A stretch of 64,000 nucleotides of DNA. It comes from Dehalococcoidia bacterium (lineage in GTDB: Bacteria > Chloroflexota > Dehalococcoidia > Lucifugimonadales > UBA3495). Under the pieces are notes generated by a model, which saw only the letters and a program-made list of their open reading frames with translations, made no database searches and was not told the origin of the DNA. Location: the NCBI GenBank assembly GCA_965204905.1, contig OZ242042.1:898778-962777 (forward strand), written 5' to 3'. The position numbers and the translations under genes were made by a program. Each line of letters opens with the position of its first letter. Within the stretch, counting starts at the first letter, position 1. This document shows, one piece after another, positions 5,727 to 60,729 of this stretch.

Positions 5727-6005
5727 TCAGAAGTCGTCCGTGGCGCTGTCCTAGGGCTCGTACTCGTCATCCACGTGGTCTGGGCAGTCGGCGGCGCTGA
5801 TGTCGCAGAACCGGCACTCTTGGTGGGTGGTGGTTACGCGTCTTACCGGTTCGTCCCTCGCGATCCGCCGGATCAGCGTGCACAGGCTCTGGACGAACTG
5901 CTCGTCGACGGCGTCGGGCGGAATGCGGGCGGTGTGGTCCCGGTATGAAACCCGCCCAGTGGGTTTGACGTTCCGGTACCGCTGGAGTGCCCTGGGGATG
6001 TGCGG
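5727..6005 (-). pseudogene. Cas4-like PD-(D/E)XK nuclease, C-terminal fragment (family A, fragment 1)
   Basis: IPRALQRYRNVKPTGRVSYRDHTARIPPDAVDEQFVQSL..QECRFCDISAADCPDHVDDEYEP aligns to the C-terminus of copy A3. A premature TAG occurs where the paralogs read EDCATDDF, and the ancestral stop is still visible at 5727-5729. The N-terminal two thirds are missing. Confidence 0.7.
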
Positions 6006-6113
6006 CTGCAACGAATCCGGAAGGACGACTGCCCGATCCGCGAGTGAACACGCCCGATTGTACCGGGGCCGCTGTCCATCAGGTTTGGTTTGTATTTTGA
6101 GACTATCCTGTCG

Positions 6114-8002: not shown

Positions 8003-9178
8003 TTATTCGGGGAACTCGGCGGTGAGGTCCTCGATGAATTGCCACACGTTCGTCAGTTCGTCTGGTTCTGCGAGGTACCCGTCCGGCAGGTTGGCCAATC
8101 GTTCTACATCCTCTCGGTTGAAGGGCAGGGCGGCCGCGAGCTGGGACCGTTGGATAATGTCATTGGCATCTAGGGCTTCGAAAACCCTTCTCACCAATCG
8201 GGGTTCCTCAAATGGCTCAACGTCGTCGAACGGTTCGAGCGTATTCCACCCGCGTCTGTTGTAGCTGATGTAGAGCCGCCTGGATTCGTCCTTGTCGATT
8301 ATGTTGAGATCATGTGCCCGGTGAATCATCATCTTGACCGATGTGCGCCACTTGGTTTTCAGGGTTCTGAACACCTCCAAGGTCGGTCTGGTGAGGTCGG
8401 ATGAGAAAGTCTGTGCCGGCGTCAGAAATGCCGAAGCGAATCGGTCGGCCTGGGTTTCGATGAGTTTGAAGTACATTTTGGAATCGAATTCGGTGGATGA
8501 CACATTGCGGTGCAGTATCAGGTGCCCGAGTTCGTGGCCGACGTTGAATCGTGAACGGAACGCGGATTGGCCATCCGACCCCAAGACGATGTACGGTCGC
8601 TCAACCGATTCATCCCAAGTGGAAAAAGCATCGAGATTGGCGGTGCCCATCTCCATCTTCACCACGACTACCCCGTGATTCTCGGCCAGCAGGGTCATGT
8701 TGCTGATGGGTCCATCGCCCAGTTGCCAATTCCTGCGGGCCGTCCTCGCGATCTCTTCGATGTCTTGGTCGGTGATTGACCGCCAGCCACCACGGTCTTG
8801 GATTTCGGGAACATCCGCGTCGGGCAGACGCACGAATTGGCCAAGATACTGGAGTGTTTCGTGCAACCAGGTGAGCCGGTGCCTCGCGCGTGTCCTGGCT
8901 GACTTGGTCGTAGCGGCTCTGGAGCGTTCAAATACAGTCCTGTCTCGTTGCCGCGCCGGGTCCTCCACGGGCCGGAAGAAAAAAGCAGGCTTGAAATTCA
9001 AAGCGCGGCAGAGCTTGTCGAACACTGCAGGGCTGGGAGTGGTGTGCCCTTTTTCGTAAGACGAAATCGCTGACGAGGTGACACCTGATAGTTCCGCCAA
9101 GGCAATCGCAGTCATCTGTCGTGCTTCTCTGCCCTCTCTGAGCCGTTGTCCGACAAAACCTGGGCTACCAGAGCGCAT
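8003..9178 (-). CDS. XRE-type HTH fused to ImmA/IrrE (COG2856) zinc metallopeptidase
   Basis: N-terminal HTH (GQRLREGREARQMTAIALAELSGVTSSAISSYEKG) and the HELGHLILH zinc motif. Confidence 0.85.
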   Translation of the reverse strand: MRSGSPGFVGQRLREGREARQMTAIALAELSGVTSSAISSYEKGHTTPSPAVFDKLCRALNFKPAFFFRPVEDPARQRDRTVFERSRAATTKSARTRARHRLTWLHETLQYLGQFVRLPDADVPEIQDRGGWRSITDQDIEEIARTARRNWQLGDGPISNMTLLAENHGVVVVKMEMGTANLDAFSTWDESVERPYIVLGSDGQSAFRSRFNVGHELGHLILHRNVSSTEFDSKMYFKLIETQADRFASAFLTPAQTFSSDLTRPTLEVFRTLKTKWRTSVKMMIHRAHDLNIIDKDESRRLYISYNRRGWNTLEPFDDVEPFEEPRLVRRVFEALDANDIIQRSQLAAALPFNREDVERLANLPDGYLAEPDELTNVWQFIEDLTAEFPE

Positions 9179-10462: not shown

Positions 10463-10470
10463 CTCCCGCG

Positions 10471-11951
10471 CTAGCAGTCTGTCTGAAGATTAGGTTTTGT
10501 TGTTGATGGGACCGTGTTTTGGCGAGGGTTCACGCCGGTTGGGGGATGGGTGACGGTGGACTGACCGACAGACGAGAGTGGCGGAAGAGCTTGAGCAGGT
10601 TGTGGCCGGTGCAGATCAGCGACCACTCGCCCGCAACCTTGTCCAATCCCCGCAGCAGGAACTGCCGGAAGCCTCGGCCCTGCTTGATCTGGCCGAACAC
10701 CGGCTCCACCGTCTGCATGCGTAGCGCGTATCTCTTGCGACCCCGTTTGGTCTGCAACTTGCGGCGCATCCGGTCCCTGGGAGAGAGAGCTTTGGGGATG
10801 CGTCCTTTGGGTGCGGGCGGTGGTTTGTACCCGTGGCGGGTCTTCTCCGGCGCGACGAACGGGTCGGTGCCCAGGGCGTGTAAATCGGCAACGGCCTTTG
10901 CCGAGTAGTAACCGGCGTCGGCGGACACCTCCCGGGGCGCCACTCCCACATTGGCGATGGTCTCCTCGATCATCACCACCGCCTGCTGCTTGTCCGAGGC
11001 CTGAGTGGTGGCTCGGGCCGCAATGATCACCTGATGCTCATGGTCCACCACCGCCTGACAGTTGTAAGCCTGCAGGAAGTCCCGTCCCCCAGGACCGGGC
11101 ATGATGCGGGACTCCGGGTCAGTGAAGTTGCGCTGGGCCTGGTCATCGGGCACCCCAGGATGATCCTTGCCCTCCTCTGCGGCGCGCTCCGCCTCGGCCA
11201 TGGCCTCGGCTTCCAGCGCCGCCATGGCCTCCCGGATCTTCTCCAACCGACCCTCCCGAAAGGACAACTCCTCCGGCAACTCATCACCGCGCTTGTCCCT
11301 GCCATACCGGCGATCCTCCTCCTCATCCACCTCCTGGGCGCGGCGCAGCAACTCATCCACCTCACCCTGCAACTGCGCTTCCTTCTCTTGCATACGCTGG
11401 TAACTCATCGCCTTGTGCTTCGATGCGTTGGCCCGGACCTTGGTGCCGTCCAGCGCCACGTGGCCCAACTTCACCAGTCCCGCCCGCTGGCACAGCAACA
11501 ACACCTGCAGGAACAATCCCGACAGCGCCGCCAGGTGGTCCTTGCGGAAGTCCGAGATGGTGCGAAAGTCCGGCGTGTTGTTGGCCGCCAGCACCCGGAA
11601 GGCGATGCCTTCATGCAGTCTGGTGGCGATGCGCCGCGATGACGGCACCCCGACGCAATAGGCGTACAGCAGCACCTTCACCATCATCTTGGGATTGTAG
11701 GGCGGGCCACCGCGCCGCTCCTGCTCGTAGCGGGCCGTGATCTCCGACAGGTCCAACTGGTCCACCACGTCTGAGATGAAATAGGCCAGGTGACCCTCGG
11801 GCAACCACTCCTGCAGCGCCGCCGGCATCAGCAACTGCTGGTCAGGATCGTAAGGCAGATAGGTCTTGCTCATCACCGGCTCCCAACGACTGGACTGCCC
11901 CCATCATACGCTCTCCACCTCGCTGGCCCTGTTTCTCAGACAGGCTGCTAG
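10471..11951 (-). mobile_element. IS1182/IS5-like insertion sequence
   Basis: Imperfect terminal inverted repeats: CTAGCAGTCTGTCTGAAGA at 10471 and the reverse complement CTAGCAGCCTGTCTGAGAA at 11951. CTAG is present at both junctions (10471-10474 and 11948-11951), consistent with a 4-bp target duplication. One transposase ORF. Confidence 0.85.
10530..11876 (-). CDS. DDE transposase, IS1182-type (DUF772 N-terminus)
   Basis: LPEGHLAYFISDVVDQLDLS..GGPPYNPKMMVKVLLYAYCVGVPSSRRI and C-terminal FGQIKQGRGFRQFLLRGLDKVAGEWSLICTGHNLLKL. Confidence 0.9.
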   Translation of the reverse strand: MMSKTYLPYDPDQQLLMPAALQEWLPEGHLAYFISDVVDQLDLSEITARYEQERRGGPPYNPKMMVKVLLYAYCVGVPSSRRIATRLHEGIAFRVLAANNTPDFRTISDFRKDHLAALSGLFLQVLLLCQRAGLVKLGHVALDGTKVRANASKHKAMSYQRMQEKEAQLQGEVDELLRRAQEVDEEEDRRYGRDKRGDELPEELSFREGRLEKIREAMAALEAEAMAEAERAAEEGKDHPGVPDDQAQRNFTDPESRIMPGPGGRDFLQAYNCQAVVDHEHQVIIAARATTQASDKQQAVVMIEETIANVGVAPREVSADAGYYSAKAVADLHALGTDPFVAPEKTRHGYKPPPAPKGRIPKALSPRDRMRRKLQTKRGRKRYALRMQTVEPVFGQIKQGRGFRQFLLRGLDKVAGEWSLICTGHNLLKLFRHSRLSVSPPSPIPQPA

Positions 11952-12130
11952 GTTGATGAGGTTTTGCCAGTTCATGGATGGGCCTCCCGGGCAAATGGGA
12001 TTGATGGTCGAGATGTAGCAGGTTGTCGGGGGCAAAGTTTGGCTGTCCGGGTTGATGCCGCTGTTATTCGCCTGCTGGATGTTGCGCAGTTCCGGAGAGG
12101 GTTCGGTGCCGGTCTCTTCCCCCTCGTTGG

Positions 12131-12781
12131 TCAGAAGTCGGCGGTGGTTCCTTCTCCGTTCTGGGAGGCCTGGTCCACACGGTCGGGGCAGTCTGCGTCA
12201 GTAATGTCGCTTCTGCGACATTCCGCTTGGCTAGGCACCAGGATCGCCGGTTTAGCAGTTGCCGCTCTGCGGATCAGCGCTGTCAACTTGGCGACGAACG
12301 GGTCGTCATTGGTCAGTGCCGACACGTCCACGGCGTGGTCTTGGTAAGCGACATGCCCGGTGACCATCCGGCCTCGGTAGTGGTTCAGTGCCAATGGTAC
12401 AGCGTACTGGTAGATCATCACCTGGACGGCGTGGGATGGCCCGGCCCGGCCGGTCTTCGCGTCGATGATCACCACCTCTTGATCCTTCTGGGCGATGAGG
12501 TCGGGTTTGCCGGCCAGCGTTGCTAGGTTCCCGCGCAGGCGGAAGCTGTTCTGGTCCTCGGCGTAGACCCGGTATCCTCGCTCCTGCCAATCGTCTCTGA
12601 CTTCGTTGAGGAGCGCGGTGTGGTCGAGGAGCCAACGCGTCTGGTCAAAGTCCGACCGCGGCCGGTCCCAGCCCTGGTAATGGGCCTTGAACCAGACGGC
12701 CCACTCGCAGGAGTTCTCGCCGGTGAGCAGCCTCGGCAGCCAGGTTGCCCAGATGTAGGGGAAATCTCGTTGCTCTGCCAC
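12131..12781 (-). CDS. Cas4-like PD-(D/E)XK nuclease (family A, copy A2), Fe-S motif degraded
   Basis: Same length and motifs as A1/A3 (GKPDLI, IIDAKTG, QVMIYQY). The C-terminal CxxC reads CRRS (AECRRSDITDADC), so one cluster Cys is lost. Confidence 0.75.
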   Translation of the reverse strand: MAEQRDFPYIWATWLPRLLTGENSCEWAVWFKAHYQGWDRPRSDFDQTRWLLDHTALLNEVRDDWQERGYRVYAEDQNSFRLRGNLATLAGKPDLIAQKDQEVVIIDAKTGRAGPSHAVQVMIYQYAVPLALNHYRGRMVTGHVAYQDHAVDVSALTNDDPFVAKLTALIRRAATAKPAILVPSQAECRRSDITDADCPDRVDQASQNGEGTTADF

Positions 12782-28984: not shown

Positions 28985-29467
28985 TAGTTTCCGTAGCCCT
29001 CCTGAGACGGGACGGGGCTGAGCGTCAATCTTTTCTGATGAGGGTCCGCCGAGGTCTACGGAGGGTGTGGCGCTTGTTTTGGGAACACGGCGTCGTGCCT
29101 GAATCACGGTCTGCTGAACTCGACCTGCATCGGCTGTCGGTATTGGTGATGGAAGTGCTGATGGCTTGTGGGGAGTCCATACTCAGCGGTCGGTGGTGTC
29201 TGCGTGTTGTTGCGGATGCCTTCAGAGCGGCTCAGTCGGGTCGGGCGCGACTGCCGTTGTGATCTCGTGGCCTGACGGTGTCGCGCGCGAAACCCGCCCG
29301 TCTGGGCGCGCGCTGACCGTTCGTTTGGGATAGGTTGCGGCAACAAAAAGCGGCTCGGTCGAGCTGCTGGGAGTTTGGTCTGGTTAGGCCCGTCATTCTT
29401 GCTTTTGTTTCAGGATGAGAGGGCCTGCAGGTTCGTTGTGTTAGCCCCTCTGGAATTTTCGTTCTCC

Positions 29468-30523
29468 TTAGAAGCGGAACAGGTTGATTTGATGCCTGTT
29501 CGGGACTCCTAAGAAGTCATACCAGGGCTGACGCGGCTCTTTGGCCGCGTAGTCATAGTCGCCCGCCATTAGCTCGTCGAAGTTGTCGTACGCGGTCAGG
29601 ATGGCTTGTTGTCGCTTCTGGCCGTAGGCGTCCCACACGAATGGGTTGATGTACCAGTTTTCGCTAAACAGGATGATCTCTGCTGAAACTGCGGCTTGCA
29701 GCTCCGTGCCGTTGGTTGTTGCTATGTGGCCGAAAAACCTTTCGGCCTCGCTGTTGCCCACGTAACTTGCGATTACAACGTGCTCGCCGTGCTTGGGGAT
29801 CACGGTCAACGACCAGGAACAGTTCGGCTCCCGGTTAGTCAACAGCTTTGTCTGCTCCAAAGGTAAGATTTGGCCTGTATTTCGGTCCATGGCCATGTCT
29901 GCTGAGCTGTGGGCTTGCGCCGCTGCCACAATGGGTGTCTTCGTTTTGACCATCCTGACAAGGTGCTTGATCCTGATCGCCGGTCGATAATCGTCACTCA
30001 CTGACCCGAGTCCCTGCCCTAATCTATTCGCAAGGTTGATCATCGCCCGCAGTCTGTAAGAGGGACGAATGTGAGGTGGCATTGCTGGGTGTACAAATTT
30101 CGAGGTGGGTCCAGTCATCCTTAACTGCTTCCATAGTTCCAGCAAAGCTGCCCTGTACATCATCAGGTCGAGTATTCGGTTGTCCTTGATGTCCGCGTCA
30201 GGTCTTTCGATCTCTTTAAACAGGTCTTCGTGGTGCCTGCAAACGAACGGGCCTGTTGATGCCCTGTTGATTCCTATCTTTTCGGCCCGGGCAACTTGGC
30301 TGAATTCGCCTGAAGCGTCTGTCTCTGGTCTACCTATCAATTGCGTGACGTGGTTTGCGACTTGGATGCTCCGCAAGATGTTCCTTGGAACCGTGTGCGA
30401 TCGGATTGGCTTCCCTTGGCAGTCAGGCGAGAAAAGACACCGGTTAGGGTCGTTTTGCCAGATATCCTGCATGCTTTGCCAGAACTCGCGCTGGAGGTGG
30501 GTGTCTTTTCCTTTCTGCTGCAT
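29468..30523 (-). CDS. Hypothetical 351-aa protein downstream of Cas4-like A3
   Basis: Long ORF in a visibly AT-richer segment, 101 nt downstream of A3. Conserved-looking PIRSHTVPRNIL and FVCRHHEDLFKEIE. No family recognised. Confidence 0.6.
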   Translation of the reverse strand: MQQKGKDTHLQREFWQSMQDIWQNDPNRCLFSPDCQGKPIRSHTVPRNILRSIQVANHVTQLIGRPETDASGEFSQVARAEKIGINRASTGPFVCRHHEDLFKEIERPDADIKDNRILDLMMYRAALLELWKQLRMTGPTSKFVHPAMPPHIRPSYRLRAMINLANRLGQGLGSVSDDYRPAIRIKHLVRMVKTKTPIVAAAQAHSSADMAMDRNTGQILPLEQTKLLTNREPNCSWSLTVIPKHGEHVVIASYVGNSEAERFFGHIATTNGTELQAAVSAEIILFSENWYINPFVWDAYGQKRQQAILTAYDNFDELMAGDYDYAAKEPRQPWYDFLGVPNRHQINLFRF

Positions 30524-30624
30524 GGTGTTCTCTATAGGGTGCTTGCCGAAGTAATCGGCCTCTCCAACCTACCTGATGCTAATGTTGTGTCCAATCATTT
30601 TATAACGACGCTCGCCTGTTCGCT

Positions 30625-31275
30625 CTAGAAGTCGTCGGTGGCGCAGTCCTCGGGCTCGTACTCGTCTTCCAAGCGTTCCGGGCAGTCTGCGGCCGTGATG
30701 TCGCAGAAGCAGCACTCCTGTCGGCTGAGCACTCGTCTTGCCGGTTCGTCGGCTGACAGGCGGCGGATCAGCGCGCCCAGGTTCTGGATGAACTGCTCGT
30801 CGACGGCCTCTGCCGAAACGCGGACCGTGTGATCGCGGTAGGTGACCTGCCCCCTGAGTTTGGCGTTTCGATACCGCTGGAGTGCCTTGGGGATGGCGTA
30901 CAGGTAGATCATGACCTGGACGGTGTGGCTTGGGCTTTGGTGGCCGGTCTTGGCGTCGACGATGACGGCGTGGTCCTCCCTGCGGGCGATGATGTCAGGT
31001 CGGCCGGCGAGTGTCGCGGTCTTGCCGTGGAGTTCAAACCGGTTTTGGGCCTCGATGTCGACGTCGTGGCCGCCGACGGTCCAGTTGGCGATGCGCTGGT
31101 TGAGGAGCGCGCTGTGGTCGAGCATCGACTTGGCTCGGTCGAAGTCGGACGGGACGCGTTCCCAGCTTTGATGGTGGGCCTTGAACCAGATGGCCCACTC
31201 GCAGGAGTTCTCGCCGGTGAGTAGCCTGGGCAGCCAGGTTGCCCAGATGTAGGGGAAATCTCGTTGCTCGGCCAC
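30625..31275 (-). CDS. Cas4-like PD-(D/E)XK nuclease (family A, copy A3)
   Basis: GTG start. ENSCEW, GRPDII..AVIVDAKTG, QVMIYLY and CCFCDITAADC. Confidence 0.8.
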   Translation of the reverse strand: MAEQRDFPYIWATWLPRLLTGENSCEWAIWFKAHHQSWERVPSDFDRAKSMLDHSALLNQRIANWTVGGHDVDIEAQNRFELHGKTATLAGRPDIIARREDHAVIVDAKTGHQSPSHTVQVMIYLYAIPKALQRYRNAKLRGQVTYRDHTVRVSAEAVDEQFIQNLGALIRRLSADEPARRVLSRQECCFCDITAADCPERLEDEYEPEDCATDDF

Positions 31276-31470
31276 GGCACGGCGCCGTCCGGAGGATTAG
31301 CCGTGGGTCAGCTTGACCTGAGTGTATTGGGCGGTTTGGGTGCGCTACGGGCTGCTGTCATCAAAAACTTGGCCGCCCCGTTGGTCAGGGCGGCCGGTGT
31401 CGCGGTTGGTCCGTGACGTGTCCATTGTGTCAGGTGTGGGCTCGGGTTCGCCAAGGCTTGGTGTCATCAA
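31276..31470 (-). promoter_or_regulatory. Family A leader copy (UCR-A3)
   Basis: Aligns by eye to the other UCR-A copies. Confidence 0.6.
31361..31395 (-). terminator. Intrinsic terminator in UCR-A3
   Basis: Minus-sense GGCCGCCCU-GACCAAC-GGGGCGGCC followed by AAGUUUUUGAUGA. The closing pair is U:G in minus sense. Confidence 0.55.
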
Positions 31471-31574
31471 TCGTTGGGGACGGTTGGGTTTGGTTCCGGC
31501 GCAGGAACGGACGGGGCAGAGGTCGGTCGGGTCTGCCGGGTTTGCCGTTGGCGGCGTTTTTGATGGTGGGCGGG

Positions 31575-31625
31575 CCTTACGTCGATCGCCGGTGCGGTCG
31601 TCCATGGTCCTCGAGGTCTTGGGGT
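31575..31625 (-). pseudogene. Family B 3'-terminal remnant (B6)
   Basis: cgatcgccggtgcggtcgtccatggtcctcgaggtcttgg matches the last codons of B2 (QDLEDQGRP.RR). Confidence 0.4.
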
Positions 31626-31771
31626 CTTCGGCTCGGCTGTTGGTGAACTGCTTGCAGAGGGTGTTTTGGTCGACCGGTTGGTAGCTGGGCATGTCCTGTC
31701 TGAGCTGTTCAGTCACCGGTTTCCCTACCATTGGCTCACGTCTGTCCTTCGGTAGTTTCGGGAGTGAGCAA

Positions 31772-32533
31772 ATGCTTGGTATGGGACTCAGTACGCCGGC
31801 TGCGGTCGCCGTGGCGTCCAAGGATATCCGGGTTTACTTTGGCAGCCCGATGGCGTACATCGTCGCGATGACGTTCATGTTAGCTACGGGTGTTGCTTTC
31901 CTGTGGGATCTCGGTTCCCCGTTCCCGGAGGCGTCCTTGGCGAATTTCTTTGGGGGAAGCGTTCACGCCGGGAACGTGTTTGGCGCTGCCCTCGTGCTTA
32001 TACCGTTGGGCCCGATCTTGACGATGCGTCTTTTGGCTGAGGAGCGGAAGATGGGTACCTTGGAGTTATTGCTCACTGCACCGGTGCGCGATTGGGAGGT
32101 GATACTGGGCAAGTACTTGGCCAGTCTGGTCTTCTTGGTCTTCATGCTGGTTCTAACGGGCTACTATGTGTTGCTCCTCTCTGTGTTCGGGCGCCCGGAC
32201 GTTGGTCCGATCCTTTCTGGCTACTTGGGGATAGTGCTGTATGGGATGGTCGCCTTGTCGGTCGGGATTTTTTCTTCCGTGTTGACGAGCAATCAGGTCG
32301 TTGCTGCGGTGTTGGGAACCGGCATTATGGGTCTGCTCTATGGAGTGAGCCGACTGGGACAGGTGGTTGGCGGGACATTTGGTGACCTTCTGGTCTTGGT
32401 GGGATTGGAGGGTCGGCTGGATGATTTCATCGTGGGGATCGTTGATTCTTCCAGCATCGTTTATTTCGTTTCTCTGGTCTGCTTGTTCTTGTTCTTGGCT
32501 TGGCGTGTTCTCGAATCGCGGCGCTGGCGGTAG
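31772..32533 (+). CDS. ABC-2 type transporter permease (GldF-like), with no ATPase partner nearby
   Basis: KDIRVYFGSPMAYIV, LLAEERKMGTLELLLTAPVRDWEVILGKYLA, and six hydrophobic segments. Confidence 0.7.
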   Translation: MLGMGLSTPAAVAVASKDIRVYFGSPMAYIVAMTFMLATGVAFLWDLGSPFPEASLANFFGGSVHAGNVFGAALVLIPLGPILTMRLLAEERKMGTLELLLTAPVRDWEVILGKYLASLVFLVFMLVLTGYYVLLLSVFGRPDVGPILSGYLGIVLYGMVALSVGIFSSVLTSNQVVAAVLGTGIMGLLYGVSRLGQVVGGTFGDLLVLVGLEGRLDDFIVGIVDSSSIVYFVSLVCLFLFLAWRVLESRRWR

Positions 32534-32537
32534 GCAC

Positions 32538-32990
32538 TCACATCTCGGCCGTTCGTTTCTGTGATGCTTGTGTGATTTTGCGCCGGGCCGGCCGTCCTTG
32601 GTCCTCGAGGTCCTGACACTGTCTGCAGGATTCGGCGAGGGTGCCGTCGGGGAGTATGGTCTTCTCGTTCCCGCAGTCGCAGGTTCGCTCCAGGATCTGG
32701 AGGGCGAGGTCGAACTCCCGGGTGCGGTTGGCGTCGGCGGCGCAGTGTTCGCGCTTGAGTTGGTCGAATTTGATAGCGAACCGGGCGTAGGCGGTTTGAC
32801 GCTTGTTGGCTTTGATGTCGGCGCGGCCTTTGGAGACCCACTTGCCGAGGGTGCTGGGGGACATGGAGACGCCGTACTCGCTGGCGTGTCTGACGACGTC
32901 GTGGTAGGTGCCGTCGGTATCGGGGAGGGCGCGCAGGACGGCGGCGATGTTCGGAGCGGTGAATTGTGCGGTGTTGTTGAAGTTGGTCAT
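32538..32990 (-). CDS. Small HTH + zinc-ribbon protein (family B, copy B1)
   Basis: 150 aa. HTH-like YHDVVRHASEYGVSMSPSTLGKWVSKGR, then CDCGNEK...CRQC. Confidence 0.7.
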   Translation of the reverse strand: MTNFNNTAQFTAPNIAAVLRALPDTDGTYHDVVRHASEYGVSMSPSTLGKWVSKGRADIKANKRQTAYARFAIKFDQLKREHCAADANRTREFDLALQILERTCDCGNEKTILPDGTLAESCRQCQDLEDQGRPARRKITQASQKRTAEM

Positions 32991-33038
32991 GGTGTCCTCC
33001 TGGTGGCTCTCGGTTTCTCCTCCAGGTGTGGGACTTGT

Positions 33039-33126
33039 GCTTGGACGGGCTCAGTTTGGGCTGATTGGCCGGGCCGGCCCGTCGGGTAGGATAACGGCGG
33101 TTGGGGCGAAACGGTATTGTCTTGGG
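33039..33126 (+). repeat. C-type structured repeat, 5' of B1
   Basis: GCTTGGACGGGCTCAGTTTGGG...GGGTAGGATAACGG...GCGAAACGGTATTGTCTTGGG. Confidence 0.7.
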
Positions 33127-33511
33127 TTGCTGTGCAGGGCCTTTTCAAAGTTGTGCGATTGAAGTCTATCCGCTCGTCCTGAGCTGCCGTAGGTCCGCCA
33201 GTGGCGGGTCGAAGGACGCGCTCGTGGTTCGACGGGCTCCCGCCTCAGGCGGACGTTCCGCACCATGAGCGAGCACAGGGGACTTTGGAGCGGCCCTGGT
33301 TGCTGTGGCGGGCTGATTATCAGGGCACCGGGTAGCGGAACGGGCGACCCATCAGAAACACGCCAAATCCGGCCCGTAGCCGAATTTTTGCGCCGCCCTC
33401 GAATAGTATTGTGGAATCGAGGAGAGGCCGTCACGGGGCGTCTGGGAGGTGTCCTCGCCCCTTCATTTTTCGGGGTTGTGCGTCCGTTCTACCCGCGTGG
33501 GGTGAGAGTGT

Positions 33512-33698: not shown

Positions 33699-35288
33699 TT
33701 AGCGAAAGCTCTCGAGCATTGCTCTTATCTGGGCCTTGAGGTCCAGTATCCGCCCGGCCGTCCGTTCACTCGGATTTGCTTCCTCGATCTTGTTCAGCAC
33801 TTCCAGGGCTGTTCCCCATTCTATTGTGATCCCTGATCTTTCGCTCCAGTTCATCAGCAAGTCGGTAGCTAGGTCAGGGTACGAGGACACCGCGCTTGAG
33901 CGTTTGAGCTCGATGAAAAGTGGAATGTCCGGTCCGTTCCATGGGGTCGCTTTTGCTAGTGTCACGGCTTCGGCGAAAGGTTCGGTCAGGTGGGGCACCC
34001 ACCCAACCATGTGGGTGCCCTCCGCCGGGCTGATCGGTTTGGGAGAACCCCTGTTGCGGTCTTGCCAATATTCCCTGACCCAGCGCTCCCACCAGTCTTT
34101 CTGCTGTTCGACGTCGGCTTCCCGGAGCCTGTTTTTCACGGCCTCGGCGACGAGCTCAGCCGTTTCCTTGCTGCTGGTTTTGACGGTTTCCTTGAGCCAC
34201 TCCCTTGGTTCCGCGGCGTAATGGCAGAGTAGCTTCGTGTATGCGTCGGCGAAGAGGCGTTTGGCACTGAGTTCGTTGTTCGGTTGCTCGACGAGTTCAC
34301 TGAATTTGTCCTGGAAAATATTCCCCAGCACTTGGGCCACTTGTGGGGTGATATTCTGTGCTTCGACTAGCCCACCCCATGCGGCTCTCTCTCTGTTCCC
34401 ACCGCTAGTGAACATCGGTTGGATGATTTCTTCGGCCCACGGCTGGTCAACGTGCCACAGAAACCCGGCCTGTCCCGCGAGGATTGCCGCGCCCAGGTTT
34501 CCTTTGAGAGAGTCATCGGCAACGATCTGGTTAAGACCCCTCATGCTGGTGGGACTGAATCTTTCTCTCTGCGATGTCCGTGTCCTGACGGCTGTCGATT
34601 CTAGCCAGAACGTGGTGAGGTATCCCATCTGGTAGAAGTTGAACGCTGCTTCGTGCCACCCTTGAACCGGAATATCTTCGCCGCTTCTGAGGTGGTCCCA
34701 TAGCGGCAGCGCCACCTGCTCTGCTTCGTCGATGAGATTGATGGCGTAGCTTTTGCCTCCGTTTCTCGTCAAAGCGTGAAGGCTTTCGGCTATGTCCCCG
34801 GCGTGGTGCGTGTAGACGTCTTGCATGGAGAACCATTCCAGAACTTTCCGGTATTGCTCCTCTTGCAGGTCGGCCACACGCCATCCCGATATGATGTCTT
34901 TCCATACAGGCTCCGACCACTGCCGTTGCTTGGCCAATTCTCGGGCTACGCCGTCCCCCCATTGGGGGTTTTGGCGCGTCGTCTCCTGAACGCTCCACAG
35001 GCCTGGTATGAGTTCCTCGGGTTGCGCCTGGCGGTTGCTCTCCATGAGCCAACTGACGAGTTGCTCTGCCGCCGTTTCCTTCAGGGAATCCGGTGTGAAA
35101 GGGTCGCCGCTGATGACCACGGGTTCACTTATCATCAGCCCCGGCTGTAGCGGGTCTGTCCATTCCCAACTGTGTGCTTCCTCCATCGGCGCGATCTCAT
35201 CCCTGAGTATCTGGCACTCCGGGGCGGTTTCTTGCAATGCCTTCAGCAGGTTGTACCGGCGGCGCTCGGTTGCGTTCTGAGCGGTCAT
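33699..35288 (-). CDS. Large all-helical Trp-rich partner of the SIR2 protein (DUF4020-like, from memory)
   Basis: 529 aa with its own RBS GAGGAAGAG, 23 nt after the SIR2 stop. C-terminal WWERWVREYWQDRNRG...MVGWVPHL. Confidence 0.7.
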   Translation of the reverse strand: MTAQNATERRRYNLLKALQETAPECQILRDEIAPMEEAHSWEWTDPLQPGLMISEPVVISGDPFTPDSLKETAAEQLVSWLMESNRQAQPEELIPGLWSVQETTRQNPQWGDGVARELAKQRQWSEPVWKDIISGWRVADLQEEQYRKVLEWFSMQDVYTHHAGDIAESLHALTRNGGKSYAINLIDEAEQVALPLWDHLRSGEDIPVQGWHEAAFNFYQMGYLTTFWLESTAVRTRTSQRERFSPTSMRGLNQIVADDSLKGNLGAAILAGQAGFLWHVDQPWAEEIIQPMFTSGGNRERAAWGGLVEAQNITPQVAQVLGNIFQDKFSELVEQPNNELSAKRLFADAYTKLLCHYAAEPREWLKETVKTSSKETAELVAEAVKNRLREADVEQQKDWWERWVREYWQDRNRGSPKPISPAEGTHMVGWVPHLTEPFAEAVTLAKATPWNGPDIPLFIELKRSSAVSSYPDLATDLLMNWSERSGITIEWGTALEVLNKIEEANPSERTAGRILDLKAQIRAMLESFR

Positions 35289-35311
35289 AGCGTCTCTTCC
35301 TCGTTGGAGTC

Positions 35312-37201
35312 CTATCGGAGGGCCTCGACTACGCGTCGTCGATAGTCATCGCTGAGATCCTTGAATTCCTCAATGAGCAGTTGGTCCGTCTCAAGATTTC
35401 TCCCGCTGTCCATGGGCACGGCCTTCCTAAATAGCCACTCGACTTTTTCGTGTGCCCTTTGGTCCGGTCTCATGCGGACTGAATGGACGGCGAGCCTTCT
35501 TGCCAGCGGGGACTGGGAGGCTATCAGGCGGTCCAGCCATGATTCCAGCAGTTCCGGTTCATTCTGTCCCATCCACTCCAAGCAGTCTCTGGCGATGTTC
35601 ACCATCTGGTCGATGCCCGCTTCTCGGCGGTTGCCTTGGGAATCCCCTATCATGTGACGGCCTGAAGAGTCTGTGTCGCGTTCGGCGGTGGCCAGACCCC
35701 ATTGCTCCAGGGTTCTATGTCGGTTTTCGATATGCCTCACCGCGTGGTCCAGGGTTATGGCCGCGACCGTTCCCATGTGCTGGTTCACGTTGGCCCAGGC
35801 CGCCGACAATATCCAGGCCTCTCCCAAGGTCGTCAGCTCGATTTGGTTCCCTGCGGGTCGCCTTGGTTGCGCTCTGATGACAGGCCGGAACAATTCGTCG
35901 AAGATGTTCGCGGCTTCTTGGTATAGTTCGCTCTGCACACCTAGTTCAGCCAGCCGGTATAGGCCGTCCGATTTGCGGGCATCCTGGTCTGCTGGGGTTG
36001 CTGAGAGCAGGTACGATACCCATCGGCTTATCGTGCTGGACGTTCTGGTATGTCCATCATCGAGGAGCCGGTGGGTGATGTCCCACCAGATTTGCGGATG
36101 GAGTTTTTGTCCGGCTTGCGTGATCGTGGCTATGGCTTCGTCTGGGTCGTGAGCAGCAAGCAGTCGCGCCAACCACGTCAGAAGCGTGCCATTTTCCGTG
36201 ATGGGCGCGTCGTCAAAAGCCCCCGCGACGTACTGCTTGTCTATGCACCACTCGACCCATCGGAGGCTCTGTGCGTTCGCTGTGAATGCCGGCGTGAGTT
36301 CCGGGTCCTGCAATGCTCGGTCGATGATGTTCTGCGATCCTGTGTCAAGGGGAGGATTCGGTTGGCTCGCTATTTGCGCGATCATCTGGTGCCATGTTGA
36401 GGAAGACCTTCTCTGGTACTCCGCCAGCTCGGCGATGGCTTCGGCTGCCTCGTCATGGTTTTGGTTTTCCCCTAGTTGGTAAGCGATGGGTTCTATACCT
36501 AGAGAATGCCAACTTTGATTGCCAACCGTCAGTTCGTGCGTGAGAATGAACCTCCGCGCTGGTTCGTTGCTGGTCGGCATGGCCCGCGCCAGATAGCGCA
36601 CTATCGGGTCTTGGTGGCTGTAGCCGACGAAGAGGACGTGCTGTGTCCTGAAAAGTCCTTGGAGGAACTCCAGTGCCCAGCGTTCGTCCAAGTATGCTCT
36701 GCCTATGTCTGAGTCCGTTAGGACCATGTCTTGAGGCTGGTCAATTACTCCGTGCAGGTCCACTATTCCGGTGAATCGTCCGCAGGGCGGAAGTGCCGGC
36801 GCAGCGTAAACTTTCCCGGTTTGTTGGATTTCCTTTCCTGCGCTCGTCGCCTCGAACAATTGGTCGAAGTTGGTGGTTACGAGTTTTGGCGTCGCCCCCC
36901 TTGGTCGAATGTCCAACAGGTCTCGATGAAGTTGGTTTGGATGGGCGCCCGTGAGTTGCTCAACGATGTAGGCTCTTATGTCGCGTCCCTCCATTTCAAG
37001 CCTACCGAGGAACTGATCGTCATTTTCCTCTTCGGTTCGGTTCACTTGGAAGTGCTCCTGCACTTGTTTTAGCAGAAGAGGAAAACTGGGCAGGTTCGAT
37101 GGGCTTGGGATCGACACGCCAGCTCCGGCGAAGACCACCAAGTTATCGTCGCGGAGTGCGTTCATCAGCCTATCGTTGAATTCTACGTTCCCGAGTTTCA
37201 T
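35312..37201 (-). CDS. SIR2_2-family (sirtuin-like NADase-type) protein with a helical C-terminal extension
   Basis: LVVFAGAGVSIPS (GAGxS), VTTNFDQLFE and IVDLHGV. About 350 aa of helical repeats follow. Confidence 0.85.
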   Translation of the reverse strand: MKLGNVEFNDRLMNALRDDNLVVFAGAGVSIPSPSNLPSFPLLLKQVQEHFQVNRTEEENDDQFLGRLEMEGRDIRAYIVEQLTGAHPNQLHRDLLDIRPRGATPKLVTTNFDQLFEATSAGKEIQQTGKVYAAPALPPCGRFTGIVDLHGVIDQPQDMVLTDSDIGRAYLDERWALEFLQGLFRTQHVLFVGYSHQDPIVRYLARAMPTSNEPARRFILTHELTVGNQSWHSLGIEPIAYQLGENQNHDEAAEAIAELAEYQRRSSSTWHQMIAQIASQPNPPLDTGSQNIIDRALQDPELTPAFTANAQSLRWVEWCIDKQYVAGAFDDAPITENGTLLTWLARLLAAHDPDEAIATITQAGQKLHPQIWWDITHRLLDDGHTRTSSTISRWVSYLLSATPADQDARKSDGLYRLAELGVQSELYQEAANIFDELFRPVIRAQPRRPAGNQIELTTLGEAWILSAAWANVNQHMGTVAAITLDHAVRHIENRHRTLEQWGLATAERDTDSSGRHMIGDSQGNRREAGIDQMVNIARDCLEWMGQNEPELLESWLDRLIASQSPLARRLAVHSVRMRPDQRAHEKVEWLFRKAVPMDSGRNLETDQLLIEEFKDLSDDYRRRVVEALR

Positions 37202-41901: not shown

Positions 41902-42047
41902 CGGTCCCGGCCTTATCTGATGAAACGAGGGGAGAGTACGCCCGCCCCTGGAAGCCTGTCAACAATCATCCCCCCGCCTTCAGGTTCGATTTCACTCTTC
42001 CCCAGCTTATGCGAGCATTATTCATGGTCATACAGAACCACGGTAAG

Positions 42048-42380
42048 CCACGGCGCGGCACCGTCCGATGGAGTAGCCGTGGGTCGGCCTGTCTCGAGTC
42101 TATGGGGCGGTGCGTTGGGGTCGCGCTATGGGCGGCTGTCATCAAAAACTTGGCCGCCCCGTTGGTCAGGGCGGCCGGTGTCGCGGTTGGTCCGCGACGG
42201 GTCCATTGTGTCAGTTGTGGGCTCAGGTCCGCTACGGCTTGGTGTCATCAGATTGCCGCTCTGATGCCGCTGTCTTCGCTATCGAGGGACGCGCGCCCAG
42301 ACGGGCTGTGCTGGCTTGTCGGGTCTGCCGTGTCCCATCGTTGGGTAACCGCGTTTTGGCCGAAATGGGAGTGTGTGGGG
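42048..42380 (-). promoter_or_regulatory. Family A leader copy (UCR-A4) with no Cas4-like gene, about 150 nt upstream of the amidase; includes a C-type repeat at 42296-42380
   Basis: Aligns with UCR-A1/A3 over its whole length and even retains the CCAC (GTG start) remnant at 42048. Confidence 0.6.
42141..42176 (-). terminator. Intrinsic terminator in UCR-A4
   Basis: Same hairpin and U5 tract as UCR-A3. Confidence 0.55.
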
Positions 42381-44103: not shown

Positions 44104-44523
44104 CTACGGCGATCGCCGGGGCGGTCGTCCTTGGTCTTCAAGGTCCTGGCACTGGCGGCAGGTGTCGGCGAGGGTGCCGTCGGGGAGTATGGTCTTCTCG
44201 TTGCCGCAGTCGCAGGTTCGCTCCAGGATCTGGAGAGCGAGGTCGAACTCCCGGGTGCGGTTGTCGGCGGCGGCGCAGTGTTCGCGCTTGAGTTTGTCGT
44301 ACTTCAGGGCGAACCGGGCGTAGGCGGTTTGACGCTTGTTGGCCTTGATGTCGGAGCGGCCTTTGGAGACCCACTTGCCGAGGGTGGTGGGGGACAGGGC
44401 GACGCCGTACTCGCTGACCTGTCTGATGACGTCGTGGTAGGTGCCGTCGGTATCGGGGAGGGCGCGCAGGACGGCGGCGATGTTCGGAGCGGTGAATCGT
44501 GCGGTCTTGTTATCGTTGGCCAT
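44104..44523 (-). CDS. Small HTH + zinc-ribbon protein (family B, copy B2)
   Basis: 139 aa. TLGKWVSKGRSDIKANKRQTAYARFA and CDCGNEK..CRQC. Confidence 0.7.
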   Translation of the reverse strand: MANDNKTARFTAPNIAAVLRALPDTDGTYHDVIRQVSEYGVALSPTTLGKWVSKGRSDIKANKRQTAYARFALKYDKLKREHCAAADNRTREFDLALQILERTCDCGNEKTILPDGTLADTCRQCQDLEDQGRPPRRSP

Positions 44524-60693: not shown

Positions 60694-60729
60694 GAGGGCT
60701 CGAATGGTGTTTGCTCGGGTCTGGCAAGC

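What the first reader, a model, noticed from the sequence alone, without database searches (positions are those of the whole stretch)
29468..33126. Cassette locus 3: B1, an orphan ABC-2 permease as cargo, leader and A3, then an unknown 351-aa protein
Seen in sequence: the minus-strand order is C repeat, intact B1, a plus-strand ABC-2 permease with no ATPase gene, a 50-nt remnant of another B 3' end (31575-31625), UCR-A3, intact A3, then after 101 nt an AT-richer 351-aa ORF of unknown family. Each intact A copy is followed by a different gene: the 242-aa coiled-coil protein after A1 and the 351-aa protein after A3. Inference: a conserved nuclease with a variable downstream partner is a pattern seen in defence loci. 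The permease without its ATPase looks like captured cargo rather than a working transporter.
Basis: partly seen in the sequence, partly recalled or inferred. Interest (0 to 1): 0.6.

Follow-up and report, generated by a model that had tools for sequence, protein, structure and literature searches.

The report
Defence-island unit with unnamed protein
In a fast-rearranging island of an uncultured Dehalococcoidia bacterium, a repeated regulator-plus-nuclease module has a stray transporter gene inserted into it. It is followed by a protein from a large, unnamed family that usually sits beside restriction and other anti-phage genes and has no recognisable fold.

Summary
On the minus strand lie the C repeat, B1, a plus-strand ABC-2 permease, a 46-nt relic of a B 3' end, a conserved leader, A3, a 101-nt gap and a lower-GC 351-aa ORF (X351).

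- **Permease:** it lies in a 960-nt low-GC insert inside the 3' end of B, flanked by a 33-34-nt duplication. It has no ATPase in the window. The genus-wide ATPase-permease-auxiliary operon lies elsewhere.
- **A3:** a solo Cas4-family Fe-S nuclease. The family is multi-copy, under purifying selection and has its own conserved terminator/promoter-like leader. Its downstream gene differs from copy to copy.
- **A3-X351 pairing:** none of 27 other X351-family loci has an A gene next to it, so this is not a conserved two-gene system.
- **X351:** it belongs to a large family (2,082 representatives) with no Pfam, NCBIfam, PADLOC or PHROG model. A high-confidence model (pLDDT 92) finds no solved fold.
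- **X351 context:** 11 of the 27 other loci have a restriction-modification gene within two genes, one inside a type I operon. On plasmids, relatives sit beside Abi, PifA-like, VapBC and TIR genes.

My reading is a stand-alone, defence-linked effector with a Cys/His site. That function is inferred, not shown. The scan had already noted the neighbouring split Dsr1 system and the repeat family on this window.

The parts
33054..33138 (-). C repeat, the intergenic repeat that heads the B1 unit
   Evidence: Family D6 has 5 copies at 60-81% identity to this copy, each upstream of a B copy or another gene unit.
32538..32990 (-). B1: 150-aa protein of a multi-copy family, with an altered C-terminal tail
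   Evidence: ORF. It has no Pfam, NCBIfam or PADLOC hit and one weak PHROG hit to a terminase small subunit (E 1e-3). Copies at 93%, 86% and 85% identity exist in the genome, alignable only to residue 137. The family is in 8 of 24 same-genus genomes. dN/dS is 0.28-0.57.
31623..32582 (.). 960-nt insert in the 3' end of B, carrying the permease gene
   Evidence: Window 32583-33130 and 31169-31622 are contiguous in the copy at C1:386-387 kb, with 34 nt represented twice. The three-way alignment shows the break points. GC is 0.559. A Logan contig spans 31384-32661 with 0 differences.
32583..32616 (-). Left copy of the 33-34-nt duplication of the B 3' end, inside B1
31589..31622 (-). Right copy of the duplication, part of the 46-nt B 3' relic at about 31577-31622
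   Evidence: A 19/20 core match to the B1 end.
31691..32533 (+). Orphan ABC-2 (GldF-type) permease; probable true start at 31775 or 31781
   Evidence: Five ABC-2 Pfam families. TIGR03518 matched at 139 bits, below its 288.5 cut-off, over model positions 3-239 of 240. It is 58-64% identical to a single-copy core gene found in 23 of 24 same-genus genomes. The core ATPase finds no relative in the window.
31371..31395 (-). Terminator-like hairpin with T run at the start of the leader
   Evidence: 10-bp stem with 9 G-C pairs, then a T run. It is conserved in 4 of the 6 A loci of this genome: 374k, 906k, 911k and 930k.
31276..31470 (-). Conserved non-coding leader of A3 (promoter-like boxes and a 5' hairpin over the start codon)
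   Evidence: Repeat families D4, D15 and D18. In-frame stops occur in most copies. Conserved boxes are recognisable in nearly all of 19 aligned copies, and one hairpin pair shows a compensatory change.
30625..31275 (-). A3: 216-aa solo Cas4-family PD-(D/E)XK nuclease with four cysteines
   Evidence: PDDEXK_1 36.3 bits and Cas_Cas4 26.9 bits, both above cut-off. PADLOC Cas4 models match. C25, C188 and C198 are invariant, C191 is in at least 90% of rows, and D94, D107, K109, Q120 and Y124 are invariant. dN/dS against orthologues is 0.19-0.26.
30524..30624 (-). 101-nt AT-richer spacer between A3 and the 351-aa gene
   Evidence: GC 0.485. No terminator-like site on the minus strand here.
29468..30523 (-). 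X351: 351-aa member of a large unnamed family with no known fold
   Evidence: No hit in Pfam, NCBIfam, PADLOC or PHROGs. 14 close homologues. 2,082 representatives at E<=1e-3. AF2 model pLDDT 92.1, pTM 0.90 with no fold match. Context.

Best explanation
The locus is one unit of a recombination-shuffled accessory island of a Dehalococcoidia (SAR202-type) bacterium.

The canonical unit is the C repeat, then B (a small protein with C-x-C and C-x2-C motifs, probably DNA-binding), then a terminator/promoter-like leader, then A (a solo Cas4-family Fe-S exonuclease of phage replication-module type), then a variable downstream gene.

Two foreign, lower-GC pieces were added in this copy:
1. A 960-nt single-gene insert carries an orphan ABC-2 permease. 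It landed inside the 3' end of B, duplicated 33-34 nt and gave B1 a new 13-residue tail.
2. Downstream of A3 lies X351.

X351 is not a dedicated partner of A3. It belongs to a widespread, unnamed family of stand-alone proteins of about 310-400 aa. Family members are inserted again and again beside or inside restriction-modification operons, and among Abi, toxin-antitoxin and other defence genes on chromosomes and plasmids.

I take X351 to be a single-gene, defence-linked effector. Its nearly invariant Cys/His residues (C29, H43, C95, H98, and C35 in most members) would form a metal or active site. It is probably transcribed by read-through from the A3 leader.

Shown: the anatomy, the insert, the family size, the lack of a known fold and the context. 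Inferred: defence function, metal site, co-transcription, and that the permease is idle cargo.
For: **Anatomy and insert**
- Searches give the layout and break points.
- A contig from a public run bridges the insert with 0 differences.

**Canonical B-leader-A units elsewhere**
- C1:386-387 kb in this genome.
- Genome G013, where B ends 42 nt before A.
- Genome G008, where a B copy lies directly upstream of an A fragment.

**The A family**
- Cas4-type motifs and cysteines are conserved.
- It is in 15 of 24 same-genus genomes, usually several copies each.
- 684 protein clusters match at E<=1e-5.
- dN/dS is 0.15-0.26.
- The only Cas1-like match in the genome is marginal and about 370 kb from the window.
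- A 47%-identical relative lies between DnaB and RusA, near ERF, YqaJ and RecA, on a 104-kb IMG/VR viral contig.

**Genes downstream of A, in 19 loci**
- A small N6_N4 methyltransferase-like gene in 5 (4 with a Pfam hit; 1 reached only across an IS).
- The coiled-coil 242-aa gene in 2.
- X351 in 1.
- SNF2 plus SWIM in 1.
- A recombinase Zn-ribbon fragment plus a large serine recombinase in 1.
- An HSDR_N-like nuclease in 1.
- An aspartyl protease-like gene in 1.
- An IS in 1.
- Unknown or none in the rest.

**The X351 family**
- 2,082 representatives at E<=1e-3 and 374 at E<=1e-10.
- 37 sampled members have no Pfam domain above its curated cut-off except one SEC-C motif.
- It is patchy: 14 of 401 sampled genomes of the class, this genome included.
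- Its GC3 is below that of its neighbours in most loci.

**Restriction-modification genes within two genes of X351 relatives: 11 of 27 other loci**
- MmeI-like (L048).
- Eco57I-type (L049, L032; L035 and L075 also with an SNF2 helicase).
- Two N6_N4 methylases, one fused to HNH (L050).
- Inside a type I operon, hsdM-hsdS-231aa-X-Schlafen/AlbA_2-hsdR (L074).
- Type I genes one gene away (L079, L082).
- A methylase-Mrr fusion (L081).
- NgoFVII plus a C5 methylase (L072).

**Other company of X351 relatives**
- TIR-AAA (L045); ThiF plus DUF6527 ahead of the paralogue in this genome.
- A serine recombinase, relaxase and coupling protein (L070).
- On plasmids of other phyla: an Abi family protein plus AAA ATPase and helicase (Vibrio), AbiH (Enterococcus), PifC plus a P-loop NTPase (Klebsiella pKPN5), VapBC (Sphingomonas, Shinella), TIR (Aminobacter), and AAA plus DUF4435 (Salmonella).

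**This locus**
- It abuts a split Dsr1-like SIR2 system at 33699-37201.
- No terminator-like site lies between A3 and X351 on the minus strand.
Against: - No experiment or transcript data exist; no RNA run is listed for this stretch.
- I did not compute a matched control for the restriction-modification association. Calling 11 of 27 well above chance is my estimate.
- Kin among the Dehalococcoidia loci are not independent.
- 7 of the 27 loci (L034, L047, L051, L071, L073, L076, L078) show no defence or mobile neighbour, and one plasmid copy (Pseudoalteromonas) sits among housekeeping genes.
- On conjugative plasmids some copies lie near transfer, SSB or primase genes. That also fits a plasmid-borne selfish or anti-defence role.
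- The Cys/His site is read from alignments only. I could not inspect the model's coordinates.
- Genes were called by my own ORF heuristics, not by a gene caller.
- The permease ORF is intact with normal codon bias (GC3 0.69), so it could work with an ATPase encoded elsewhere.
Confidence: 0.55

Rival explanations
1. A3 and X351 form a two-gene defence system. The conserved Cas4-like nuclease is the effector and the variable downstream protein is its sensor or specificity partner.
For: The two genes share a strand, are 101 nt apart and have no terminator-like site between them. Every A copy has a different downstream gene, several of defence type. Cas4-family nucleases do serve as accessory partners of other immune proteins; the abstract of PMC12094033 in the listing describes ACE1 working with long-A Argonautes.
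Against: None of 27 other X351-family loci has an A-type gene adjacent. X351 relatives stand alone or beside methyltransferases in several phyla. A copies also occur with no plausible partner or beside an IS. GC differs sharply between the two genes, 0.641 against 0.536.
Confidence: 0.1
2. X351 is a selfish mobile-element gene, either anti-restriction/anti-defence or an addiction or exclusion factor of plasmids and integrative elements. It would not be a host defence effector, and here it would be a leftover of an integrated element.
For: Relatives lie on 28 plasmid records found with P0065 and 26 with P0044. Many are conjugative or mobilisable, and some lie next to tra genes, SSB, a primase-like gene or IS elements. 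One chromosomal copy sits beside a serine recombinase, relaxase and coupling protein (L070). GC is lower than the host's.
Against: A copy embedded between hsdS and hsdR of a type I operon, and copies directly downstream of type IIG enzymes on the same strand, are hard to square with an anti-restriction role. Foldseek found no viral (BFVD) structure at E<=1e-3, and a pattern scan of IMG/VR found no close relative.
Confidence: 0.15
3. The whole locus is decaying debris of prophage-like or integrative elements. A, B and X351 would have no current role, and the pattern would reflect repeated integration and erosion.
For: A has a phage relative in a replication/recombination module. Large serine recombinases lie near two other A copies or relics. 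The window holds truncated A and B relics, an IS with a 100% identical second copy, and other transposases.
Against: Six A copies are intact with all catalytic and cysteine residues except one Cys in A2. dN/dS is 0.15-0.26 for A and 0.28 for B1 against its closest copy. The A leader is conserved across genomes. X351 keeps every family-invariant residue.
Confidence: 0.12
4. The repeats, B and A together are a cassette-exchange device. The A nuclease, with B bound at the conserved leaders and C repeats, would make breaks or ends that drive recombination between units. Gene-sized pieces such as the permease and X351 would be swapped in and out, like an integron without an integrase.
For: Conserved non-coding modules head co-oriented units. 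The insert is gene-sized, at a conserved site, with a 33-34-nt duplication. Duplicated blocks of different extent occur in relatives: 4.6 kb at 98.9%, 1.5 kb at 86%, 0.77 kb at 94%. Conservation falls from the leader and A 5' part (75-82% nt) to the A 3' part (65%).
Against: No recombinase and no defined recombination site were found. Shared promoters and ordinary homologous recombination explain the same pattern. A copies also occur singly in small genomes of other genera (G027, G033, G038).
Confidence: 0.08

Closest known systems
Solo-Cas4 / MGE-Cas4 nucleases (Hudaiberdiev et al. 2017, PMC5704561; passages read)
   Same: A3 has the RecB/Cas4 motifs (D, DxK, QxxxY) and the 1+3 cysteine pattern. 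It matches PF01930 above cut-off and lies away from any cas gene. [quoted passage not shown]
   Different: Here the gene is multi-copy: 6 intact copies and at least 6 relics in one genome. It has its own conserved leader and heads variable gene units. The paper describes mainly vertical, single-copy inheritance for solo-cas4. The score for the CRISPR-associated equivalog TIGR00372 is below its cut-off (37 against 65 bits).
Stand-alone abortive-infection or suicide genes lodged in restriction-modification loci, such as PrrC within the EcoprrI type Ic locus (recalled, not checked in a call)
   Same: X351 relatives sit inside or directly after restriction-modification operons on the same strand (L074, L048, L049, L032, L035, L075). 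They are patchy, low-GC, single genes.
   Different: There is no sequence or fold similarity to any named Abi or PrrC-type protein in what I searched: PADLOC, Pfam, PDB sequences and PDB folds. There is no ATPase or anticodon-nuclease domain, and the function is untested.
'SEC-C (metal-binding) domain-containing protein', as NCBI names plasmid members of this family
   Same: These are full-length relatives of the X351 family (tblastn coverage 81-98%), and the Vibrio one is hit by X351 itself.
   Different: The name describes only an N-terminal motif of about 20 residues that X351 lacks. The roughly 300-aa core has no name or model. PADLOC 'E2' and 'PDC-S12' hits in some members fall on that motif alone.
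GldF-type ABC-2 permease in an ATPase-permease-auxiliary (GldA/F/G-like) operon
   Same: The permease aligns over the whole TIGR03518 model and is 58-64% identical to the genus's core gene. That core gene sits between an ABC_tran ATPase and an ABC_transp_aux protein.
   Different: The window copy has neither partner, lies on the opposite strand inside a B gene, has lower GC and scores below the equivalog cut-off.
Repeated terminator/promoter modules that head gene units (earlier scan note e1-4702403, which compares them to PeSL motifs of T4-type phages); integron cassettes
   Same: A terminator-like hairpin followed by conserved promoter-like boxes precedes each A copy, and the C repeat precedes B. 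Gene-sized units differ between copies.
   Different: No integrase or attC-like site was seen. The sigma-70 consensus scan found no site in the locus. Promoter function is inferred.

Membership tests
Cas4 family (PF01930 / RecB-like PD-(D/E)XK with Fe-S cluster) | PD-(D/E)XK catalytic motifs with QxxxY | tested here: met
   D94, D107, K109, Q120 and Y124 are invariant in 15 aligned family members. PF12705 36.3 bits and PF01930 26.9 bits, both above cut-off.
Cas4 family (PF01930 / RecB-like PD-(D/E)XK with Fe-S cluster) | Four cysteines: one N-terminal, three C-terminal in a CxxC-x(n)-C pattern | tested here: met
   C25, C188 and C198 are invariant and C191 is in at least 90% of rows. A2 has Ser at the C191 position. 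Cluster binding itself was not tested.
CRISPR-associated Cas4 (TIGR00372 equivalog) | Score above the equivalog cut-off, and adjacency to cas1/cas2 or a CRISPR array | tested here: not met
   37 bits against a cut-off of 65. The only Cas1-like match in the genome is 24.3 bits, at C1:530728-531018, far from every A copy.
Type II restriction endonuclease (controller-REase-MTase operon) for the B-A-methylase units seen in relatives | Each nuclease copy is paired with a cognate methyltransferase | tested here: not met
   This genome has six intact A copies. The closest relative of the partner methylase (59%) is at C1:1034642-1035271, next to none of them.
GldF / ABC-2 permease as part of a working ABC transporter | A cognate ABC ATPase encoded beside it | tested here: not met
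   tblastn with the core ATPase finds nothing in the 64-kb window at E<=1e-3. The core operon with ABC_tran and ABC_transp_aux is at C1:1.63 Mb. TIGR03518 scores 139 bits against a cut-off of 288.5.
Any Pfam, NCBIfam, PADLOC or PHROG family, for X351 | A profile match at E<=0.01 | tested here: not met
   0 families in all four libraries for X351. Of 37 relatives, none has a Pfam hit above its curated cut-off except one SEC-C motif. Of 141 relatives, the PADLOC matches that I could locate fall on the SEC-C motif.
E2 / UBC-like protein, considered because of PADLOC E2 hits and the ThiF + DUF6527 neighbours of the paralogue | An E2 core fold or profile match over the core | tested here: inconclusive
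   The E2 and E1-E2 model hits cover residues 2-52 at most, mostly the first ~30, of 9 of the 73 members re-scanned, aligned to the C-terminal end of those models (positions 165-215). No UBC-fold chain appears among the structural matches shown.
A known solved fold, for X351 | Structural match well above background | tested here: inconclusive
   Model pLDDT 92.1. Foldseek on PDB and BFVD: nothing at E<=1e-3. VIA-align over 48,161 chains: best Z 5.2, rmsd 4.6, 103 residues aligned, on the long helical hairpin only. Single domains were not folded and searched.
Defence-island gene (guilt by association) | Recurrent neighbourhood of known defence genes in unrelated genomes | tested here: met
   11 of 27 other loci have a restriction-modification gene within two genes. 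Further loci have TIR, PIN, SMODS or SIR2 neighbours, and 8 of 10 plasmid regions have an Abi, PifA-like, toxin-antitoxin, TIR, AAA+DUF4435 or RM-fragment gene within 5 kb. No matched control was computed.

The most novel reading that the evidence does not exclude
X351 founds a new, phylum-spanning family of single-gene anti-phage effectors. It would have a fold unlike any solved structure and a Cys/His metal centre, and would act as a back-up or companion to restriction-modification systems. Separately, the B/leader/A modules around it could be a nuclease-driven cassette-exchange device that assembles such genes into islands without an integrase.
Probability: 0.35. Interest if true: 0.7.

Novelty: new variant of a known kind. 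Interest (0 to 1): 0.55.

Why it matters
**A large unnamed family.** If X351-type proteins protect against phages, a family with more than two thousand 50%-identity representatives would gain a function. Members sit on plasmids of Lactococcus, Klebsiella, Salmonella, Vibrio and rhizobia as well as in marine Chloroflexota. At present they are labelled 'hypothetical' or named after a 20-residue motif.

**Testable hypothesis.** Its repeated lodging inside restriction-modification operons points to a second line of defence linked to restriction. This can be tested with ordinary phage challenge assays.

**A possible new fold.** A confident model with no structural relative makes the protein a good target for structure determination.

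**How the island is built.** The locus shows how an island in a poorly known, uncultured lineage is assembled: conserved leader modules, a multi-copy solo Cas4 nuclease and gene-sized insertions.

Tried and rejected
- **E2 reading of X351.** PADLOC 'E2', 'E1-E2' and 'PDC-S12' hits occur in 6-11 of 141 relatives. In the 9 hit members among the 73 I re-scanned, they fall at the extreme N-terminus (residues 2-52 at most), the SEC-C motif. I rejected this as evidence for an E2 fold.
- **Sequence search of solved structures.** The family profile found nothing at E<=10.
- **First structure model.** With 14 sequences it reached pLDDT 75 and found no match. It was superseded by the 141-sequence model.
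- **Weak structural rows.** TRP-channel and NINJ2 helices at Z about 5, Bet v 1-like proteins at Z 2.1-2.4, and a Myoviridae protein at probability 0.82 with TM 0.26-0.33 were not taken as relatives.
- **ESM Atlas.** It returned only unnamed clusters.
- **IMG/VR pattern scans.** No relative of X351 or B1 was found. A3 alone gave none that could be shown, and the A alignment gave one.
- **RNA and promoter scans.** Rfam found no family and ARAGORN no tRNA in the window. The sigma-70 consensus scan found 0 sites in the locus.
- **Leader as coding sequence.** I rejected the idea that the leader is an N-terminal extension of A, because most copies carry in-frame stops.
- **A as a classical restriction enzyme with B as controller.** Rejected, because six A copies lack a cognate methylase beside them.
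- **Expression.** No RNA holder is listed for the stretch.
- **Joints that skip the insert.** Contigs join 31598 to 32593 in run X3 and 31469 to 32581 in run X1. They could come from paralogous B-leader junctions or relatives, so I do not count them as evidence for an insert-free allele.
- **Literature.** No paper holds 'SEC-C domain-containing protein' together with 'phage' and 'defense'. A search on SAR202, defense, genomic island and Cas4 gave nothing relevant in the 10 listed.
- **Complex prediction.** Not used, because A3-X351 adjacency is not conserved.

Full report
**1. What is there**

The window is C1:898778-962777 of a 4.23-Mb genome with GC 0.617. Record titles of the closest public relatives read 'Dehalococcoidia bacterium'. 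Earlier notes of this scan call the genome SAR202-type.

Reading the minus strand from 33138 down to 29468, the order is as follows.
- A C repeat at 33054-33138, one of a 5-copy family.
- B1 at 32538-32990, 150 aa.
- An ABC-2 permease on the plus strand at 31691-32533.
- A short relic of a B 3' end.
- A conserved non-coding leader.
- A3 at 30625-31275, 216 aa.
- A 101-nt spacer.
- A 351-aa ORF, X351, at 29468-30523.

GC is 0.627 for B1, 0.559 for the permease, 0.641 for A3, 0.485 for the spacer and 0.536 for X351.

**2. The permease is an insert inside B**

In the B-A unit at C1:386-387 kb, one continuous stretch matches window 32583-33130 (93.8%) and window 31169-31622 (81.4%). Thirty-four of its bases are represented in both window pieces. 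A three-way alignment shows where homology breaks on each side.

About 960 nt (31623-32582) therefore lie between two copies of a 33-34-nt piece of the B 3' end. Two consequences follow:
- B1 aligns with its 93%- and 86%-identical paralogues only to residue 137 and ends in 13 new residues.
- The last 46 nt of a canonical B, stop codon included, survive at about 31577-31622 ahead of the leader of A3.

A contig of a public run covers 31384-32661 with no difference. That run may be the sample the genome came from.

The permease matches the GldF-type model end to end but below its cut-off. It is 58-64% identical to a single-copy gene present in 23 of 24 same-genus genomes. In this genome that core gene sits between an ABC_tran ATPase and an ABC_transp_aux protein. 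The core ATPase finds no relative in the window. 'Captured cargo' is a fair description. Whether the permease works with an ATPase elsewhere is open.

**3. A3 and its leader**

A3 scores above cut-off for PDDEXK_1 and Cas_Cas4 and matches PADLOC Cas4 models. In 15 aligned family members, D94, D107, K109, Q120 and Y124 are invariant. Of the four cysteines, C25, C188 and C198 are invariant and C191 nearly so; only A2 has Ser at the C191 position.

The genome holds six intact copies, about 55% identical to each other apart from one 91% pair, plus at least six relics. Further facts on the family:
- It is in 15 of 24 same-genus genomes, mostly in several copies, and in 3 of 16 other genera of the order sampled.
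- 684 protein clusters match at E<=1e-5.
- dN/dS is 0.15-0.26.
- The only Cas1-like match in the genome is marginal and far away, so these are solo Cas4 genes. Passages of PMC5704561 say that solo-Cas4 is monophyletic in many Chloroflexi and that Cas4 genes also occur in mobile elements and phages.
- One 47%-identical relative lies on a 104-kb IMG/VR viral contig between DnaB and RusA, near DnaN, ERF, YqaJ and RecA.

The leader is not coding, because most copies have in-frame stops. It has three parts:
- It starts with a terminator-like hairpin and T run at 31395-31371.
- It carries boxes that are recognisable in nearly all of 19 aligned copies from eight genomes.
- It ends in a hairpin over the start codon that shows one compensatory pair.

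I read it as a terminator for B followed by a promoter and 5' leader for A. This is an inference; the sigma-70 consensus scan found no site.

**4. What follows A varies**

I examined 19 A loci. The next gene on the same strand is:
- a small N6_N4 methyltransferase-like gene in five. Four have a Pfam hit. In L023 the methylase is reached only after an IS; in L022 it is truncated and has no Pfam hit;
- the 242-aa coiled-coil gene in two;
- X351 in one;
- SNF2 plus SWIM in one;
- a recombinase Zn-ribbon fragment followed by a 548-aa serine recombinase in one;
- an HSDR_N-like protein in one;
- an aspartyl-protease-like protein in one;
- an IS in one;
- an unknown gene or none in the rest.

Blocks of different length are duplicated within relatives. 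B is rarer than A, in 8 of 24 same-genus genomes. It often, but not always, lies just upstream of A.

A as a classical restriction enzyme is unlikely. The six copies here have no methylase beside them, and the one related methylase lies elsewhere.

**5. X351**

*No named family.* X351 hits nothing in Pfam, NCBIfam, PADLOC or PHROGs. It has only 14 close homologues. A profile built from them finds 2,082 representatives at E<=1e-3, with 374 at E<=1e-10 and 27 at E<=1e-30. Among 37 sampled, the only Pfam hit above its curated cut-off is one SEC-C motif; three others have weak hits below cut-off.

*Conserved residues.* In a 141-sequence alignment C95, H98 and F102 are invariant. C29, H43, A88, L120, R124, P243 and P294 are at 90% or more, and a second Cys six or seven residues after C29 is in the majority.

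*Fold.* The AlphaFold model from that alignment is confident, with pLDDT 92.1 and pTM 0.90. It finds nothing:
- Foldseek against PDB and BFVD gives no match at E<=1e-3.
- VIA-align over 48,161 chains gives a best Z of 5.2, on the helical hairpin only.
- The second look over Foldseek's top chains gives a best Z of 4.4.
- The family profile finds no PDB sequence at E<=10.

I did not fold single domains, so 'no known fold' holds only at the level of the whole protein.

*Chromosomal context.* I examined 27 other loci: one paralogue in this genome, three in relatives, nine from the species-level genome collection and 14 from a 401-genome sample of the class. Two weak partial hits (G002, G036) were left out.

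Eleven of the 27 have a restriction-modification gene within two genes:
- MmeI-like (L048);
- Eco57I-type (L049, L032; L035 and L075 also with an SNF2 helicase);
- two N6_N4 methylases, one fused to HNH (L050);
- a type I operon with the gene between hsdS and hsdR, next to a Schlafen/AlbA_2 gene (L074);
- type I genes one gene away (L079, L082);
- a methylase-Mrr fusion (L081);
- NgoFVII plus a C5 methylase (L072).

Other loci show TIR-AAA (L045), ThiF plus DUF6527 with an HTH/ImmA pair (the paralogue), a PIN-SMODS-SIR2 island (L075), and a serine recombinase with relaxase and coupling protein (L070). Seven loci show nothing of the kind.

No locus has an A-type gene next to the X351 relative. 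The nearest are 6 kb (L045) and 9 kb (L032) away.

The family is patchy, in 14 of 401 sampled genomes of the class, this genome included. Its genes mostly have lower GC3 than their neighbours.

*Plasmid context.* On plasmids of other phyla, relatives are annotated 'SEC-C domain-containing protein' or 'hypothetical'. In ten regions read the neighbours include:
- an Abi family protein with an AAA ATPase and a helicase (Vibrio);
- AbiH (Enterococcus);
- PifC and a P-loop NTPase (Klebsiella pKPN5);
- VapBC (Sphingomonas, Shinella);
- TIR (Aminobacter);
- AAA plus DUF4435 (Salmonella);
- IS elements (Lactococcus);
- only housekeeping genes in one region (Pseudoalteromonas).

**6. Reading**

The association of the X351 family with restriction-modification and other defence genes across phyla is the strongest functional clue. 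The nearly invariant Cys/His residues point to a metal or active site. I therefore take X351 to be a stand-alone, defence-linked effector that was dropped behind A3. It is probably read through from the A3 leader, since no terminator-like site separates them. It lies in an island that also holds a split Dsr1-like system next door.

The defence function is inferred. I computed no control for the neighbourhood counts, and related genomes are not independent. Rival readings are a true A3-X351 pair, a selfish or anti-defence plasmid gene, inert debris, and a nuclease-driven cassette-exchange device. Each is scored in its own section.

**7. Comparison and novelty**

A3 is a member of the solo/MGE Cas4 group. 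It is unusual for its copy number and conserved leader. The permease is an orphan copy of a known transporter component.

X351 belongs to no described family that I could find. One literature search on the NCBI name together with 'phage' and 'defense' found no paper. What it resembles is the known habit of abortive-infection genes to lodge in restriction loci; the PrrC example is recalled from memory, not checked.

I rate the finding a new variant of a known kind. The scan had already noted the neighbouring Dsr1 split and the repeat family on this same window. It holds no note on sequences like X351.

Noticed in passing
L039:7591-10281 (G000 C1:836590-839280), outside the window: The 32%-identical paralogue of X351 (338 aa) follows a ThiF-family E1-like gene and a DUF6527 gene on the same strand, 48 nt after the latter. 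A divergent HTH + ImmA/IrrE pair lies upstream. This may be a ubiquitin-like conjugation operon with an X351-type third gene.
   Followed up: partly
window 10470-11952, and L036:14216-15698: A DDE transposase IS just downstream of A2 has a 100% identical 1,483-nt second copy at C1:382 kb, so it was active recently.
   Followed up: no
window 12131-12781: A2 has Ser in place of one of the four cluster cysteines (the C191 position) but is otherwise intact.
   Followed up: no
window 4528-5637 and 5729-6221: A GmrSD_C + Excalibur protein (369 aa) lies beside a truncated A relic that overlaps the 3' end of the 242-aa coiled-coil gene.
   Followed up: no
window 8003-9178: A single 391-aa protein fuses an HTH_3 domain to a Peptidase_M78 (ImmA/IrrE) domain. 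It is followed by a 219-aa protein of no family.
   Followed up: no
window 42047-42250: A copy of the A leader (82-90% identity) lies downstream of B2 (44104-44523) with no A gene after it. An amidase gene follows.
   Followed up: no
window 59632-62248: Two DprA-family (DNA_processg_A) genes lie in tandem, one with a weak SLOG-type hit. A DprA-like gene also sits in the defence island L075 next to SMODS and SIR2 genes.
   Followed up: no
L075 (G123 C1:339625-354551): A dense island reads SNF2 helicase, Eco57I-type methylase, X351 relative, antitoxin + PIN, SMODS nucleotidyltransferase, DprA-like protein, and a 1,272-aa SIR2_2 protein.
   Followed up: partly
L028:5007-5957 (G007): Downstream of an A copy lies a 316-aa protein made of two similar halves, followed by 460-aa and 134-aa proteins. 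None has a Pfam family.
   Followed up: no
L024:2267-6899 and L025:5742-10374 (G013): A 4.6-kb block containing B and A is present twice in inverted orientation at 98.9% identity, about 500 kb apart across the start of the record.
   Followed up: no
window 29238-30533 in run X3: A run of a different study holds low-depth contigs covering X351 with 3-10% differing letters. A close relative of the gene therefore exists in another sample.
   Followed up: no
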